Assembly (NCBI GenBank): GCA_964492715.1
Contig: CAZBLK010000009.1
Span: 27,653-91,652, forward strand
Origin: an uncultured Defluviitaleaceae bacterium
GTDB taxonomy: Bacteria; Bacillota; Clostridia; Lachnospirales; WRBF01
Direction of reading: 5' to 3'
Length of the DNA stretch: 64,000 nt
Shown here: positions 9,001-12,000 of the stretch, one piece after another
Position numbering within the stretch: position 1 is the first letter of the stretch
Layout of the letters: the number at the start of each line of letters is the position of its first letter
Made by a program: the position numbers

Positions 9001-12000
9001 AATGGTATGTTCAAATGAACAACTTTGAAAAGTTTTTCGTTGGTATGACTGCTCCAGAAGTAAAAGCTTGGTATGAAAAGTACACTGGTCAAACAGGCAA
9101 ACCTCTTACAAAGTCTGTTACAAATGAATATGACATTGCTAAATGGTCTTCATTAACTTATTTTGAAAGAGAAAGAATTGAAGACGTTACATCTTCTGCA
9201 ACTATGAGCCTTAACGATGCACACAGCGACATTGTAGGCGCAATTGTTGAAGCTTACAACAACAAAAAGGCTGTTTCTGGCGAAGTTGCTTCTTTTGGTA
9301 TTGGGTACAACAACGTGTTTAGAAAAGGCCCAGGTAAAAGCGAAGACGGAACTCCTGTTTACAGCTTTAACGAATCATACGCAGCTGTTGCTTTTGACAA
9401 AGATGGCAAAGTTGTAAAAAGCATAACAGACGTTCTTGAAGTTGCTACACCAAACTATGACGGTGCTGCTATGCCTCACATTTCAGGCTTGCCTGGTCAA
9501 AACAGGTACGTTACTGATGTTACTCATAAGGGCGAAGTTTATTTAGTGCCTGCTAAAAAGTAGTTTAAACTTTTAATTAATTTTAGGTGTTTCTCAGTTT
9601 GTTTTGAGAAATACCTTTTTTTCTAAAAAAATTTATAAATATACAAATTAGTCTTTTTAATTTCTAAATTTAGGTATATAATATAAATAAACATATATAC
9701 AGCAATGATAAAAGCTACGGTTTATAATTTTCTACAGAGAGCTGGTGGGTGGTGCGAACCAGTGAAATGTTAAGCCTTTCCACTTTTGGAGCTGTAACCC
9801 CTTTTTTGAGTGGCTGGCTTTGCCAGCAATTTGGGTGGCACCACGGAACTTTCCGTCCCATGTTTTTTGTGGGCTTGGGGAGTTTTTATTTTTGATTTTT
9901 AGGAGGATAAAATGTTAGACATTAAGTTTGTGCGTTCAAACCCTGAAATTGTGAAGGAAAATATTAAAAAGAAGTTTCAAGACAAAAAGCTTGTTTTAGT
10001 AGACGAAGCAATTGCATTGGACGAAACGTTTAGAGAAATGAAAGCTCGTTGCGATTTTCTTAGAAGCCAAAGGAACGTAATAAGCAAGGAAATTGGTGGC
10101 TTTATGGCAAAGGGTGAAAAGGACAAGGCAGAGGAAGCAAAAGCAAAGGTTGCAGAAATTGCAAAAGAGCTTGCTGGGCTTGAAGGCAAGGAAGAAGAAA
10201 CTTCTGCCAAATTGAAAGAAATTATGCTTGTTATTCCAAACATTATCGACCCATCTGTGCCAATTGGCAAAGACGACAGCGAAAATGTAGAGGTTGAGCG
10301 TTTTGGTGAGCCTGTAGTTCCAAGCTTTGAAGTGCCGTACCATGTTGAAATAATGGAAAAGCTTAAAGGCATAGACTTGGACAGTGCAAGAAAAACAAGC
10401 GGCAACGGTTTTTATTATCTTCTTGGGGACGTTGCACGTTTACATTCAGCTATTCTTTCATACGCTCGTGATTTTATGATTGACAAAGGGTTTGTTTACT
10501 GCATACCACCTTACATGATTCGCAGCAACGTTGTTACAGGTGTAATGAGCTTTGCCGAAATGGAAAACATGATGTACAAAGTTGAAGGCGAAGATTTATA
10601 CTTAATTGGGACAAGCGAACACTCCATGATTGGAAAGTTTATCGACACAATACTTGACGAAGAACAGCTTCCGCAAGCTTTAACAAGCTACTCTGCTTGC
10701 TTCCGCAAAGAGGTTGGGGCGCATGGCATTGAAGAACGTGGCGTTTACCGTGTTCATCAGTTTGAAAAGCAAGAAATGATTGTTGTTTGCAAGCCAGAAG
10801 ACAGCCCAAGATGGTTTGAAAAAATGTGCAAAAACTCTGTAGAGTTTTTCCGCTCGCTTGACATTCCTGTGCGCACTTTAGAGTGCTGCTCTGGCGATTT
10901 GGCAGACCTTAAAGTTAAAAGCATTGACGTTGAAGCATGGTCGCCAAGGCAGCAAAAATATTTTGAAGTTGGAAGCTGCTCAAATTTAGGCGATGCACAA
11001 GCACGCCGCCTTGGAATTCGCATAAGAAACAGGGAAGCTGGCAACTATTATGCACACACTTTAAACAACACAGTTGTTGCTCCTCCAAGAATGTTGATTT
11101 CGTTTTTGGAAAACAACTTGAACGAAGACGGCTCGGTTAGAATTCCAGAACCTCTTAGAATGTATATGGGCGGTAAAGATTGTATAAAGTAAATTGCAAA
11201 TTAGGTTTGTAATTTTTATAATTCATGATATAATAAAATTAAATTCAGAAACAAGAGGGACAGAACATGATTAGACTAAACTTTGCAACTACCACCACCA
11301 CTACTTAGGGCTACTTTGAGCTATGTTGTTTAAGCAACCAGCGACAAAGGCAAGCCCTATTAGTCGTGTGGTTGCAAGGTATATACAACACCTTGCGTCA
11401 CTTATAAAAGTGTGCAAGGTGTTTTTGTTTTTGAAAGGGGGTGTTTGCTCCGATGTCTAAAGGAATGTTTGAACAATGTTCTAAGGGGCGGCTCACCGTA
11501 TTTTCTTCATTTGAAAACTAACTAAAATGAAGGAGATACGACTATGGAAAACTACAAAAAACTATTGGCAGAAAAGCTTTTGGTTGCAGTAAAACAGTCT
11601 TATATAAATGCTGAGCTTATATATTTTGAGGAAAGCGAAAGCGGTTTTTTCTGTGACTACAACATGCCGCTGCTTAACCCAACATTGATTGCAGAAATAT
11701 CAAAAAGCATTGATACAAGTGGAATACAATGTGCTTATGAATTACAAGGTTTTTCCAGCGTTTATGAGGACGGCAATGCAGAAAACCGTGTACTACAACG
11801 CATTTATGTAACAGCTTTTCAAACAACTGCTGAACTTGAAGCGTATAAAAGCTTTGTTTCCGAAGCGTTAAAGCGTGACCACAAAACACTCGGCAGTGAA
11901 TTAAAGCTATTTTCAAGCTCTAACGAAATAGGGCAGGGGTTGAATTTGTGGCACCCAAAAGGTGCAATGATGCGTTACCTGGTTGAAAGCTTTGGGCAAA

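What the first reader, a model, noticed from the sequence alone, without database searches (positions are those of the whole stretch)
11544..11873. Short-form ThrRS: TGS domain absent and editing domain reduced to its C-terminal half with the CxxxH motif degraded
- The ORF is 515 aa, and the conserved linker RDHKTLG starts at residue 111.
- In the canonical bacterial enzyme the equivalent RDHRK follows a TGS domain and a complete N2 editing domain. In E. coli that enzyme is ~640 aa, a figure I am giving from memory.
- Only the tail of the tRNA_SAD fold is recognisable (…NRVLQRIYVTAF…).
- The position of the editing-site Cys/His pair (CRGPH in E. coli) reads CDYNM. The His-His pair of the first half has no counterpart.
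- The catalytic Zn-site contexts are intact (MNCPFH, QDDAHIIC, HRALFG).
- This predicts an aminoacylation-competent enzyme that cannot edit Ser-tRNA-Thr.
- It is adjacent to serS and sits under a Thr-starvation-type leader. It may be an auxiliary, stress-induced thrS paralogue.
Basis: partly seen in the sequence, partly recalled or inferred. Interest (0 to 1): 0.6.

Follow-up and report, generated by a model that had tools for sequence, protein, structure and literature searches.

The report
ThrRS with a gutted editing domain
This gene encodes a complete threonyl-tRNA synthetase from uncultured Clostridia whose proofreading domain has had its catalytic middle cut out, so it should attach threonine to tRNA but cannot itself remove wrongly attached serine.

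Summary
The 515-aa ORF (11544-13091) is a real, complete ThrRS. An in-frame stop lies 6 codons upstream, and more than 100 homologue clusters of 508-524 aa share its N-terminus.

- **Confirmed:** the TGS domain is absent. The catalytic Zn site and all 24 other active-site residues checked are canonical or conservatively substituted.
- **Wrong:** Residues 1-53 align to E. coli 68-121, and residues 61-110 align to E. coli 192-241. The middle of N2 (about E. coli 122-191, carrying K156, Y173, D180, C182 and H186) is excised. "CDYNM" aligns to YDVDL (104-108), not to CRGPH. The HxxxH helix survives, but its histidines are K6 and E10.
- **Fold:** the remnant is predicted confidently (pLDDT 93) and matches only ThrRS N2. 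It is under purifying selection.
- **Origin:** the clade is monophyletic. Its sister is a TGS-less, T-box-controlled Fusibacter ThrRS with an intact N2.
- **Regulation:** the clade replaced the T-box with two tandem leader peptides. One is a Thr-codon transcription attenuator. The other is a second uORF whose invariant ACC codon sits just before an anti-SD that masks the thrS SD.
- **Open:** I could not test whether this is the only ThrRS in the genome or an auxiliary copy.

Verdict: a new variant of a known kind, a ThrRS with no cis-editing.

The parts
11207..11234 (+). Promoter-like site TTGTAA-16-(TG)TATAAT in front of the thrS leader
   Evidence: Consensus scan, 10 of 12 matches with an extended -10 TG. 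This is a pattern match only.
11267..11308 (+). Leader peptide 1, MIRLNFATTTTTT*. Six consecutive Thr codons lie at 11288-11305.
   Evidence: Read from the sequence. Thr-run leader peptides sit at the same place in about 30 of 39 related loci.
11280..11434 (+). Attenuator RNA. Segment 1 (11280-11292, inside the leader ORF) pairs with segment 2 (11368-11380). Segment 2 can instead pair with 11390-11397 as an antiterminator. The terminator hairpin is 11387-11423, followed by UUUUUGUUUUUG.
   Evidence: RNAfold gives -65.9 kcal/mol, z = -6.7 against shuffles. The sequence is conserved across loci. The antiterminator pairing was read by eye from the sequence.
11433..11445 (+). Extended SD-like sequence GAAAGGGGGUGUU. 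It is complementary to the 3' end of 16S rRNA and serves uORF2.
   Evidence: Invariant columns in 24 aligned leaders. Found only upstream of short-form thrS in 1.46 Mb of fetched loci, apart from three chance hits that are not upstream of thrS. The complementarity to 16S rests on my own knowledge of the anti-SD sequence.
11453..11521 (+). uORF2, MSKGMFEQCSKGRLTVFSSFEN*. The invariant Thr codon ACC is at 11495-11497.
   Evidence: In 31 unique leaders the distance from the start position to ACC is always a multiple of 3 (seven different lengths). That frame is stop-free in 31/31, against 2/31 and 11/31 for the other two frames.
11498..11539 (+). SD-sequestering hairpin. The anti-SD GUAUUUUCUUCAUUU (11498-11512) pairs with AAAUGAAGGAGAUAC (11525-11539). 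The thrS SD GAAGGAGA is at 11529-11536.
   Evidence: MFE fold, -33 kcal/mol, z = -3.7. In 26 of 30 unique loci the thrS SD pairs with a segment 5-13 nt 3' of the ACC codon.
11544..11873 (+). N2 remnant, residues 1-110: helix 4-19, strands 24-30 and 34-40, helix 46-55, strands 64-74 and 83-92, linker helix 95-110.
   Evidence: AlphaFold2 pLDDT 93. Foldseek hits with E<=0.001 are only ThrRS N2 (1qf6_A TMq 0.88; 1tje). Alignments are. dN/dS is 0.16-0.31.
11703..11723 (+). Excision scar, residues about 54-60 (KSIDTSG). It replaces E. coli about 122-191, which holds K156, Y173, D180, C182 and H186.
   Evidence: Alignments with E. coli and 16 ThrRS that have a complete N2. These columns are gaps in 35-36 of 36 clade members.
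11874..12758 (+). Class II catalytic domain with Zn ligands C205 (12156-12158), H256 (12309-12311) and H383 (12690-12692).
   Evidence: Pfam tRNA-synt_2b, E = 9.9e-47. PDB phmmer hits 1nyq and 1qf6 at E about 1e-112 to 1e-117. The full model has TMq 0.83 to 1qf6_A.
12780..13046 (+). Anticodon-binding domain, residues 413-501.
   Evidence: Pfam HGTP_anticodon, E = 1.2e-21.
9696..11192 (+). Neighbouring serS (9912-11192) with its own T-box leader (9696-9863).
   Evidence: Pfam Seryl_tRNA_N plus tRNA-synt_2b. Rfam T-box scores 88.3 bits, E = 5e-19, just under the gathering score of 93.

Best explanation
ORF 11544-13091 encodes an active threonyl-tRNA synthetase belonging to a conserved clade of uncultured Clostridia.

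**Origin (shown by comparison).** The clade descends from a clostridial ThrRS that already lacked the TGS domain and was T-box controlled.

**What changed (shown).** The central roughly 70 residues of the N2 editing domain were excised. That block carries K156, Y173, D180 and the CxGxH motif (C182, H186). The two histidines of the HxxxH helix were also replaced.

**What remains (shown, with inferred role).**
- The rest of N2 is a compact helix-strand-strand-helix-strand-strand scaffold plus the linker helix.
- It is kept under purifying selection.
- I infer that it acts as a structural brace, or as part of the clamp on the tRNA acceptor stem. It is not a hydrolytic site.

**Activity (inferred).**
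- The synthetic site and the anticodon-binding domain are canonical. The enzyme should therefore activate Thr, and occasionally Ser, and charge tRNA-Thr.
- It has no cis post-transfer editing of Ser-tRNA-Thr.

**Regulation (structure shown, mechanism inferred).** Expression is tied to the supply of Thr-tRNA-Thr at two levels.
1. A leader peptide with six Thr codons drives a classical ribosome-mediated transcription attenuator.
2. Read-through transcripts carry a second, strongly initiated uORF. Its invariant ACC codon lies 5-13 nt before an anti-SD that masks the thrS SD. A ribosome slowed at ACC should uncover the thrS ribosome-binding site.

**Unresolved.** I cannot say whether the enzyme is the cell's only ThrRS or a back-up copy. 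I put the odds at roughly 50:50.
For: **Gene integrity and family**
- TIGR00418 above its cut-off; Pfam core plus anticodon domains; no TGS or tRNA_SAD.
- An in-frame stop lies 6 codons upstream.
- 120 listed homologue clusters at 62-100% identity. The full-coverage ones are almost all 508-524 aa (a few reach 568), and four listed entries are 427-462-aa partial sequences. All come from metagenomes or MAGs labelled Clostridia or Oscillospiraceae.

**Excision of the editing site**
- Alignments; residue table.

**Scaffold fold**
- pLDDT 93; Foldseek hits only ThrRS N2 (1qf6_A TMq 0.88, with about 64 gap columns).
- The full model matches 1qf6_A at TMq 0.83.

**Selection**
- N-terminal omega is 0.16-0.31; core omega is 0.09-0.13.

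**Canonical active site**
- Of 25 E. coli catalytic or inhibitor-contact residues, 22 are identical in 36/36 and R363 in 35/36. T307->S and M374->T are clade-invariant substitutions. No borrelidin- or obafluorin-type substitution occurs at G463, Q484 or L489.

**Descent**
- In an NJ tree, 22 short forms and two 408-aa forms are monophyletic.
- Their sister is L024 (Fusibacter, 610 aa, HxxxH and CxGxH intact), which has an Rfam T-box at 94.6 bits.

**Leaders**
-.

**Established knowledge**
- C182 and the HxxxH/CxGxH residues are required for Ser-tRNA-Thr hydrolysis (PMC4041444, PMC12003907).
- The N-truncated cyanobacterial T2-deltaN has null editing (PMC4787780).
- The naturally editing-less yeast mitochondrial ThrRS still charges tRNA and forms Ser-tRNA-Thr in vitro (PMC4267643).
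Against: - No biochemistry exists. All members are uncultured, so activity and mischarging are inferred only.
- The role of the retained scaffold is a guess. Two clade members (L012, L013; 408 aa) have lost it entirely, so it is dispensable in some backgrounds.
- Pre-transfer editing in the synthetic site, as in yeast MST1, or an unlinked trans-editing factor could restore fidelity. Neither was testable.
- The uORF2 stalling model rests on a single Thr codon that is always ACC. That invariance could equally reflect its pairing with GGU of the upstream SD-like sequence. That 3-bp helix never varies, so it is neither supported nor refuted.
- With the leader ORF masked, the thermodynamic MFE still keeps the terminator. 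Antitermination would therefore have to be kinetic.
- The tree is a simple NJ tree built on a pattern-biased sample.
Confidence: 0.75

Rival explanations
1. The short form is an auxiliary paralogue induced by starvation. It works beside a full-length ThrRS that can edit, and that enzyme clears Ser-tRNA-Thr in trans. The model is cyanobacterial T1/T2, or B. subtilis thrS/thrZ.
For: - The clade is spread patchily over MAGs labelled Oscillospiraceae, Defluviitaleaceae, Saccharofermentanales, Ruminiclostridium and Clostridiaceae.
- A cultured Oscillospiraceae member (Subdoligranulum variabile) has a full-length TGS+N2 ThrRS that is only 47% identical.
- Synteny is not conserved, and some copies sit among accessory-type genes. 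L084 has a transposase fragment plus AraC, MerR and beta-lactamase-family genes. L085 has AAA_21/RloB.
- Two stacked Thr-limitation switches would suit a gene that is normally off.
- Precedent: an editing-impaired T2 is rescued by T1 (PMC4787780).
Against: - No second thrS, TGS or N2-like ORF occurs in the 64-kb window or within about 6 kb of ten related loci.
- In this window the gene lies in a core block: hrcA-grpE-dnaK-dnaJ ... serS-thrS-rpsL-rpsG-fusA-tuf.
- The catalytic core is under strong purifying selection.
- Control by charging also governs housekeeping thrS genes, such as the T-box in the sister lineage L024.
- No copy was found on plasmids at 60% identity or more, or on viral contigs.
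Confidence: 0.45
2. The short form is the sole housekeeping ThrRS of these organisms. Fidelity is either relaxed and tolerated, or it is maintained by pre-transfer editing, by an unlinked trans-editing factor (AlaX-, ProXp- or DTD-like), or by discrimination at EF-Tu or the ribosome.
For: - Core genomic context in this window.
- A deep, well-conserved clade with invariant catalytic residues.
- The sister lineage carries one T-box thrS of the same TGS-less type.
- Homeostatic feedback on Thr-tRNA supply is what a sole synthetase needs.
- Precedents: yeast mitochondrial MST1 is the only ThrRS of its compartment and lacks editing (PMC4267643). Mycoplasma ThrRS are reported to be editing-defective (cited in PMC4787780 and PMC7337905).
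Against: - Rubio et al. argue that a misacylating ThrRS is selected against as a housekeeping enzyme (PMC4787780).
- Taxonomic distribution is patchy and neighbourhoods vary.
- No candidate trans-editor was seen nearby. Only N2/TGS-like folds were searched across the whole window; Pfam was run on 23 of its 58 ORFs.
Confidence: 0.45
3. The protein is not a working synthetase for translation. It could be an immunity or resistance ThrRS against a ThrRS-targeting antibiotic of the borrelidin or obafluorin type, or a regulatory pseudo-enzyme.
For: - Truncated or duplicated aaRS genes often serve such roles (general knowledge; PMC4787780 introduction).
- Some copies lie in accessory-type neighbourhoods.
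Against: - Every catalytic and inhibitor-contact position checked is wild type (Y462, G463, Q484, L489, H309 and others), apart from two conservative, clade-invariant substitutions (T307->S, M374->T).
- No biosynthetic cluster is nearby.
- The leader senses Thr codons, which is what a synthetase feedback loop would do.
Confidence: 0.05
4. The short form is an artefact: a truncated or frameshifted gene, a wrong start codon, or a misassembly.
For: None was found.
Against: - An in-frame stop lies at 11523-11525 and an SD lies 7 nt upstream of the ATG.
- The identical protein occurs on three independent contigs.
- More than 100 clusters have the same length and N-terminus.
- No N2 or TGS coding remnant occurs in any frame of the 350-nt leader.
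Confidence: 0.01

Closest known systems
Canonical bacterial ThrRS (E. coli 1QF6, S. aureus 1NYQ)
   Same: - Class II core, Zn triad, Thr/ATP-binding residues, anticodon-binding domain and linker helix are shared.
- The overall predicted fold matches 1qf6_A at TMq 0.83.
   Different: - There is no TGS (N1) domain.
- N2 lacks its central roughly 70 residues and all four HxxxH/CxGxH residues.
TGS-less ThrRS with a complete N2 (about 575-615 aa; for example L024 Fusibacter, L014-L031 from Armatimonadota, Lentisphaerota and Chloroflexota)
   Same: - These are the closest relatives in the core, at 54-59% identity.
- They start at the same point, just before the HxxxH helix.
- L024 is the sister of the short-form clade.
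   Different: - They keep RHSxAH and CRGPH.
- L024 is controlled by a T-box, not by leader peptides.
Yeast mitochondrial ThrRS MST1 and crenarchaeal ThrRS-cat (3UGQ, 3A31)
   Same: - Both are natural ThrRS without a cis post-transfer editing site.
- MST1 still charges tRNA, mischarges Ser in vitro and relies on pre-transfer editing (PMC4267643).
- The 408-aa clade members L012 and L013 have the same minimal architecture.
   Different: - They are not close by descent: 255 and 226 bits against about 395 bits for bacterial ThrRS.
- They lack N2 entirely, whereas the window enzyme keeps a folded N2 scaffold.
- Crenarchaea pair the catalytic enzyme with a free-standing ThrRS-ed. No such partner was seen here.
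Cyanobacterial duplicated ThrRS T1/T2 (Anabaena; PMC4787780)
   Same: A bacterial ThrRS with a degenerate N2, expressed under a specific stress. This is the model behind the "auxiliary paralogue" reading.
   Different: - T2 keeps HxxxH and DxCRGPH. It is impaired by a 20-aa insertion, not a deletion, and retains residual editing.
- Its trigger is zinc limitation.
- Its partner T1 is known. Here the copy number is unknown.
Leader-peptide transcription attenuators (E. coli thrL of thrABC, pheM of pheST) and translational attenuation by leader-peptide stalling (ermC/cat type)
   Same: - Leader 1 has the classical parts: a short ORF with a run of regulatory codons, overlapping alternative helices and an intrinsic terminator.
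- pheM is annotated in the E. coli record fetched here.
- The uORF2, anti-SD and SD arrangement resembles ribosome-stalling control of a downstream SD.
   Different: - In the related Fusibacter locus (L024) fetched here thrS is under a T-box, as I recall is usual for Firmicutes.
- A full-text search found no description of a Thr-codon leader for thrS.
- The second module has one conserved sense codon rather than an antibiotic-dependent arrest peptide. Its function is inferred only.

Membership tests
Threonyl-tRNA synthetase (NCBIfam TIGR00418 thrS; class IIa aaRS) | Whole-protein score above the curated equivalog cut-off | tested here: met
   562.9 bits against a cut-off of 383.65. The match covers residues 62-501 and model positions 123-562 of 565.
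Threonyl-tRNA synthetase (NCBIfam TIGR00418 thrS; class IIa aaRS) | Class II catalytic core plus HGTP anticodon-binding domain | tested here: met
   PF00587 at E = 9.9e-47 and PF03129 at E = 1.2e-21. Foldseek TMq is 0.83 to 1qf6_A.
Threonyl-tRNA synthetase (NCBIfam TIGR00418 thrS; class IIa aaRS) | Catalytic zinc triad (E. coli C334, H385, H511) and Thr/ATP-contact residues | tested here: met
   C205, H256 and H383 are present. Of the other 22 positions checked, 19 are identical to E. coli in 36/36 clade members, R363 in 35/36, and T307->S and M374->T are clade-invariant substitutions.
Threonyl-tRNA synthetase (NCBIfam TIGR00418 thrS; class IIa aaRS) | Aminoacylation of tRNA-Thr | not testable with these tools
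   This needs an enzyme assay or genetic complementation.
ThrRS/AlaRS editing domain (N2; Pfam tRNA_SAD; HxxxH + CxGxH) | HxxxH motif (E. coli H73, H77) | tested here: not met
   K6 and E10 in the window. Across the clade these positions are N/K/E/D and E/D/N.
ThrRS/AlaRS editing domain (N2; Pfam tRNA_SAD; HxxxH + CxGxH) | CxGxH motif (C182, H186) with D180, K156 and Y173 | tested here: not met
   The whole segment (E. coli about 122-191) is deleted. These columns are gaps in 35-36 of 36 members.
ThrRS/AlaRS editing domain (N2; Pfam tRNA_SAD; HxxxH + CxGxH) | Profile match to tRNA_SAD (PF07973) | tested here: not met
   No hit at E<=1. My own N2 HMM matches only as two separate end pieces, at 30 bits.
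ThrRS/AlaRS editing domain (N2; Pfam tRNA_SAD; HxxxH + CxGxH) | N2 fold | tested here: inconclusive
ThrRS/AlaRS editing domain (N2; Pfam tRNA_SAD; HxxxH + CxGxH) | Hydrolysis of Ser-tRNA-Thr | not testable with these tools
   This needs a deacylation assay.
TGS domain (N1) | Profile match, or about 60 residues N-terminal of N2 | tested here: not met
   There is no Pfam hit. M1 aligns to E. coli L68. A stop codon lies 6 codons upstream.
T-box leader (RF00230) | Covariance-model match upstream of thrS | tested here: not met
   Nothing in 11193-11543 at E<=10. None in L004-L013 at the gathering score. Positive controls: the window's serS at 88.3 bits and thrS of L024 at 94.6 bits.
Ribosome-mediated transcription attenuator (leader-peptide type) | Short ORF with an SD and a run of codons for the regulating amino acid | tested here: met
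   MIRLNFATTTTTT* in the window. Thr runs of 3-7 occur in about 30 related leaders.
Ribosome-mediated transcription attenuator (leader-peptide type) | Intrinsic terminator plus a mutually exclusive antiterminator that overlaps a segment pairing with the leader ORF | tested here: met
   Terminator 11387-11423 plus a U-tract. The 1:2 helix is 11280-11292 with 11368-11380. The 8-bp 2:3 antiterminator (11373-11380 with 11390-11397) was read from the sequence. The simple terminator scanner did not flag the terminator because its loop and stem shape fall outside the scanner's rules.
Ribosome-mediated transcription attenuator (leader-peptide type) | Read-through increases on Thr-tRNA limitation | not testable with these tools
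   This needs reporter or transcript assays.
Duplicated ThrRS systems (thrS/thrZ, T1/T2) | A second ThrRS gene in the same genome | not testable with these tools
   Only 64 kb of this genome and up to 10 kb around relatives can be read. None was found there.

The most novel reading that the evidence does not exclude
A whole clade of free-living anaerobic Clostridia uses this editing-null enzyme as its only ThrRS. These organisms would then translate Thr codons without post-transfer proofreading, or with a trans-editor not yet recognised. They would have swapped the ancestral T-box for a two-tier peptide sensor in which a second uORF reads Thr-tRNA supply at the level of translation initiation. 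The same central piece of N2 has been excised independently in at least two other lineages (P0268, P0183). This suggests that N2 is built from a dispensable catalytic insert on a structurally required scaffold.
Probability: 0.3. Interest if true: 0.75.

Novelty: new variant of a known kind. Interest (0 to 1): 0.55.

Why it matters
**Why the enzyme matters**
- ThrRS editing of Ser-tRNA-Thr is a textbook case of aaRS proofreading. Its Zn-motif residues are described as invariant across life (PMC12003907).
- Natural enzymes without editing are known mainly from organelles, crenarchaea (which have a separate editor) and reduced parasites.
- A conserved clade in ordinary anaerobic gut and digester Clostridia has precisely removed the catalytic insert but kept the scaffold.
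- That gives a natural experiment on two questions: what the rest of N2 does (tRNA clamping, folding, dimer geometry), and how much Ser-for-Thr error free-living bacteria tolerate or correct by other means.

**Why the leader matters**
- It documents an evolutionary swap from RNA-based (T-box) to peptide-based sensing of the same signal.
- It offers a compact candidate for translational attenuation by a sense codon.

Tried and rejected
**Readings I rejected**
- CDYNM as a degraded CxxxH. Three independent alignments place it on GFYYDVDL.
- An upstream start or a frameshifted N-terminus. A stop lies at 11523-11525, and no N2 or TGS signal occurs in any frame of the leader.
- A T-box upstream of thrS. 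None at E<=10.
- Element 2 as a pure riboswitch-like RNA without translation. Rejected because of strict triplet periodicity and the 31/31 open frame. Its P1b helix does covary, though (4 of 5 pairs change on both sides, and 0/500 shuffles reach the score).
- Element 2 as a K-turn (box C/D-like UGAUGA/CUGA), as a T-box remnant, or as a tRNA-Thr anticodon-arm mimic for ThrRS binding. I considered these by eye. The motifs are not conserved across both sequence classes, and no UGGN bulge is present.
- Antibiotic-immunity ThrRS. The inhibitor-contact residues are wild type.
- Plasmid or phage carriage. No clade member was found.

**Attempts that failed or were unavailable**
- Detection of a second thrS or a trans-editor. 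My own N2+TGS HMM on six-frame ORFs of the window and ten loci found only the short thrS itself. A genome-wide test was impossible.
- The JBC 2016 paper on bacterial ThrRS quality control is not held.
- dS was saturated for most pairs, so dN/dS rests on three or four pairs.

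
Full report
**The gene**

ORF 11544-13091 (+) encodes 515 aa. It starts at an ATG that lies 7 nt after GAAGGAGA. The reading frame is closed by TAA at 11523-11525, so it cannot extend upstream (the stop-to-stop ORF begins at 11526).

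Pfam finds only the class II core (residues 195-401) and the HGTP anticodon-binding domain (413-501). No TGS or tRNA_SAD hit appears even at E<=1. NCBIfam's thrS equivalog scores 562.9 bits against a cut-off of 383.65, but it matches only model positions 123-562.

The best solved relatives are S. aureus, Stenotrophomonas and E. coli ThrRS, at E about 1e-112 to 1e-117. All of those alignments begin at query residue 63-66. The identical protein occurs on three contigs.

**The family**

A search of 5.8 billion proteins returned 120 listed clusters at 62-100% identity. The full-coverage ones are almost all 508-524 aa (a few reach 568) and cover the whole query, N-terminus included. Four listed entries are shorter, partial sequences. 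Every named member is a MAG protein called threonine--tRNA ligase, from Clostridia, Oscillospiraceae, Saccharofermentanales, Clostridiaceae or "Clostridiales". The short form is therefore a conserved gene family and not a truncation artefact.

**Anatomy of the N-terminus**

I aligned the protein with E. coli ThrRS, taken from NC_000913, and with 16 ThrRS that have a complete N2.

- Window M1 aligns to E. coli L68. This is the same starting point as a widespread class of TGS-less ThrRS of about 575-615 aa.
- Residues 1-53 align to E. coli 68-121: the HxxxH helix, two strands including GFYYDVD, and the start of the next helix.
- Residues 61-115 align to E. coli 192-246: the last two strands with LQRIYG, the linker helix and RDH.
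- E. coli 122-191 is replaced by about 7 residues.

The excised block holds K156, Y173, D180, C182 and H186. In the retained helix, H73 and H77 are K6 and E10. Across the clade these positions are N/K/E/D and E/D/N.

It has nothing to do with CRGPH. C37 is itself at least 90% conserved in the clade and replaces a tyrosine.

**Fold of the remnant**

AlphaFold2 on a 38-sequence alignment of residues 1-112 gives pLDDT 93. The topology is helix 4-19, strands 24-30 and 34-40, helix 46-55, strands 64-74 and 83-92, then the linker helix.

Foldseek against the PDB finds only ThrRS N2 at E<=0.001:
- 1qf6_A at TMq 0.88 over 176 alignment columns, which means about 64 target columns have no counterpart.
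- 6vu9, 1nyq and 1nyr.
- The isolated editing domain 1tje.

The next hits are unrelated. The full-length model (pLDDT 89) superposes on 1qf6_A at TMq 0.83.

Where dS is not saturated, dN/dS is 0.16-0.31 for the remnant and 0.09-0.13 for the core. The remnant is therefore a folded, selected scaffold, not decaying sequence.

**Synthetic site**

I checked 25 E. coli catalytic or inhibitor-contact residues. These include the Zn triad C334/H385/H511, R363, D383, Y462, G463, K465, Q484, L489 and H309. Twenty-two are identical in 36 of 36 members and R363 in 35 of 36; T307 and M374 are replaced by Ser and Thr in all 36.

Nothing suggests altered Thr/Ser discrimination or antibiotic immunity. Three lines of published work bear on the consequence.
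- The editing residues are required for Ser-tRNA-Thr hydrolysis (PMC4041444, PMC12003907).
- An N-truncated ThrRS has null editing (PMC4787780).
- The naturally editing-less MST1 still charges tRNA and mischarges Ser (PMC4267643).

I therefore infer an enzyme that aminoacylates normally but cannot edit in cis.

**Descent**

I built an NJ tree of the core region from 214 ThrRS. The set comprised fetched loci plus 150 representatives from an exhaustive HMMER search.

- All 22 short forms and two 408-aa forms (L012, L013) form one clade. The 408-aa forms begin directly at the RDH motif.
- The sister is L024, a Fusibacter MAG ThrRS of 610 aa without TGS but with RHTFAH and CGGLH intact.
- L024 thrS is preceded by an Rfam T-box at 94.6 bits.
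- The nearest other complete forms (54-59% identity) come from Armatimonadota, Rhodothermales, Lentisphaerota and Chloroflexota.
- Two unrelated representatives, P0268 (526 aa) and P0183 (500 aa), show the same central excision. Each sits among neighbours with a complete N2. This suggests the same cut has happened more than once.

**Regulation**

The 350-nt region upstream of thrS has no T-box. It has two modules instead.

*Module 1* is a leader peptide, MIRLNFATTTTTT* (11267-11308).
- It is followed by a highly structured RNA (-65.9 kcal/mol, z = -6.7).
- A segment inside the leader ORF (11280-11292) pairs with 11368-11380.
- That second segment can alternatively pair with the 5' arm of a terminator hairpin (11387-11423, followed by a U-tract).
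- Thr-run leader peptides occur at this position in about 30 of 39 related loci. Four of the nine without one had less than 240 nt of upstream sequence.

*Module 2* lies between the terminator and thrS in 36 loci. In 1.46 Mb of fetched DNA it occurs nowhere else upstream of a ThrRS gene.
- It begins with GAAAGGRGGUGAU. By my knowledge of the anti-SD sequence, this is a 13-nt complement of the 16S rRNA 3' end.
- It continues with an ORF: AUG at +16, or CUG/UUG at +13. The distance from that start to an invariant ACC codon is always a multiple of 3, with seven distinct lengths from 24 to 63 nt.
- The ORF is open in 31 of 31 unique sequences. The other two frames are open in 2 and 11 of 31.
- A helix inside the module (GCUCC with GGAGC) covaries at 4 of 5 pairs. 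Of all cells, 90.5% are paired, against 36-56% for slid controls, and 0 of 500 shuffles reach the covariation score.
- Directly after ACC comes an anti-SD, read as Ser or Pro codons, that pairs with the thrS SD (window 11498-11512 with 11525-11539; z = -3.7).
- In 26 of 30 unique loci the SD's partner lies 5-13 nt after ACC.

*What is shown:* two conserved, translated leader ORFs, a terminator and an SD-sequestering hairpin.

*What is inferred:*
- Ribosome stalling at the Thr run gives antitermination.
- A ribosome slowed at ACC covers the anti-SD and frees the thrS SD.

*Caveats:*
- The invariance of ACC may instead reflect pairing with GGU of the upstream SD.
- The masked-ORF MFE still keeps the terminator.

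A full-text search found no prior description of a Thr-codon leader for thrS.

**Sole enzyme or paralogue?**

This is the key open point, and I could not settle it.

*Evidence for a housekeeping role:*
- In this window the gene lies between serS and rpsL-rpsG-fusA-tuf, downstream of hrcA-grpE-dnaK-dnaJ.
- The core is strongly constrained.
- Feedback by charging is what a sole synthetase uses.

*Evidence for an auxiliary role:*
- Synteny is not conserved. L084 sits among a transposase fragment and AraC, MerR and beta-lactamase-family genes. L085 is next to AAA_21/RloB. L087 is fused in an operon with asd.
- The clade is scattered over several clostridial families.
- A cultured Oscillospiraceae member has a full-length TGS+N2 ThrRS that is only 47% identical.

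*Negative results:*
- No N2 or TGS-like ORF exists in the 64-kb window or near ten relatives.
- No clade member is on plasmids or viral contigs.

The rest of each genome is out of reach with these tools.

**Comparison and verdict**

By every testable criterion the protein is a member of the ThrRS family. It fails the defining motif tests of the N2/tRNA_SAD editing family while keeping part of that fold.

Functionally it should behave like the editing-less ThrRS of yeast mitochondria or crenarchaea. It is not related to them by descent, and unlike them it retains a scaffold.

It is best filed as a new variant of a known kind. The dual leader-peptide control that replaced a T-box is the most unexpected by-product of this check.

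Noticed in passing
window 11433-11543; also L004-L008, L010-L013, L084-L114: A second conserved uORF lies between the attenuator terminator and thrS. It has an extended SD (GAAAGGRGGUGAU), an invariant ACC codon and an anti-SD that masks the thrS SD. The frame is kept in 31 of 31 leaders, one internal helix covaries, and there is no Rfam match.
   Followed up: partly
L024:5088-5319 compared with window 11193-11543: The sister lineage (Fusibacter, complete N2) controls thrS with a T-box. The short-form clade uses leader peptides instead. The change of sensor coincides with loss of the editing site.
   Followed up: partly
L012:4911-6137 and L013:1467-2693: Two clade members (MAGs labelled Ruminiclostridium sp. 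and Eubacteriales) encode 408-aa ThrRS that start at the RDH motif with no N2 remnant. They still sit behind element 2, and L013 also has the Thr leader.
   Followed up: partly
P0268 (526 aa) and P0183 (500 aa): ThrRS representatives from other parts of the tree show the same central N2 excision, while their neighbours keep a complete N2. This may be convergent loss of the same insert.
   Followed up: partly
L087 and L088, 6001-8639: The short thrS is followed after 18 nt by asd (aspartate-semialdehyde dehydrogenase). A Thr-pathway gene would then share the Thr-sensing leader. aspS-gatCAB lies upstream.
   Followed up: no
window 11652-11654 (C37) and 11730-11732 (C63): C37 replaces the conserved Tyr104 of GFYYD and is at least 90% conserved in the clade. 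A second Cys, in IxCAYEL, is the majority residue. I did not examine whether the two lie close together in the model.
   Followed up: no
window 9696-9863: The serS T-box leader scores 88.3 bits, E = 5e-19. This is just under Rfam's gathering score of 93, so it is missed at the default threshold.
   Followed up: no
window 7848-9563: A 571-aa protein with a signal-peptide-like N-terminus and an FMN_bind domain (Pfam hit listed for the identical gene in L002). It has a Pro/Ala/Thr-rich linker and two similar modules, each containing ...SSATMSLND(S/A)H....
   Followed up: no
L085:11324-12988: A 554-aa MetRS-like class I synthetase (tRNA-synt_1g plus Anticodon_1) lies 4 kb downstream of the short thrS, in a neighbourhood of acetyltransferases and AAA_21/RloB genes.
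   Followed up: no
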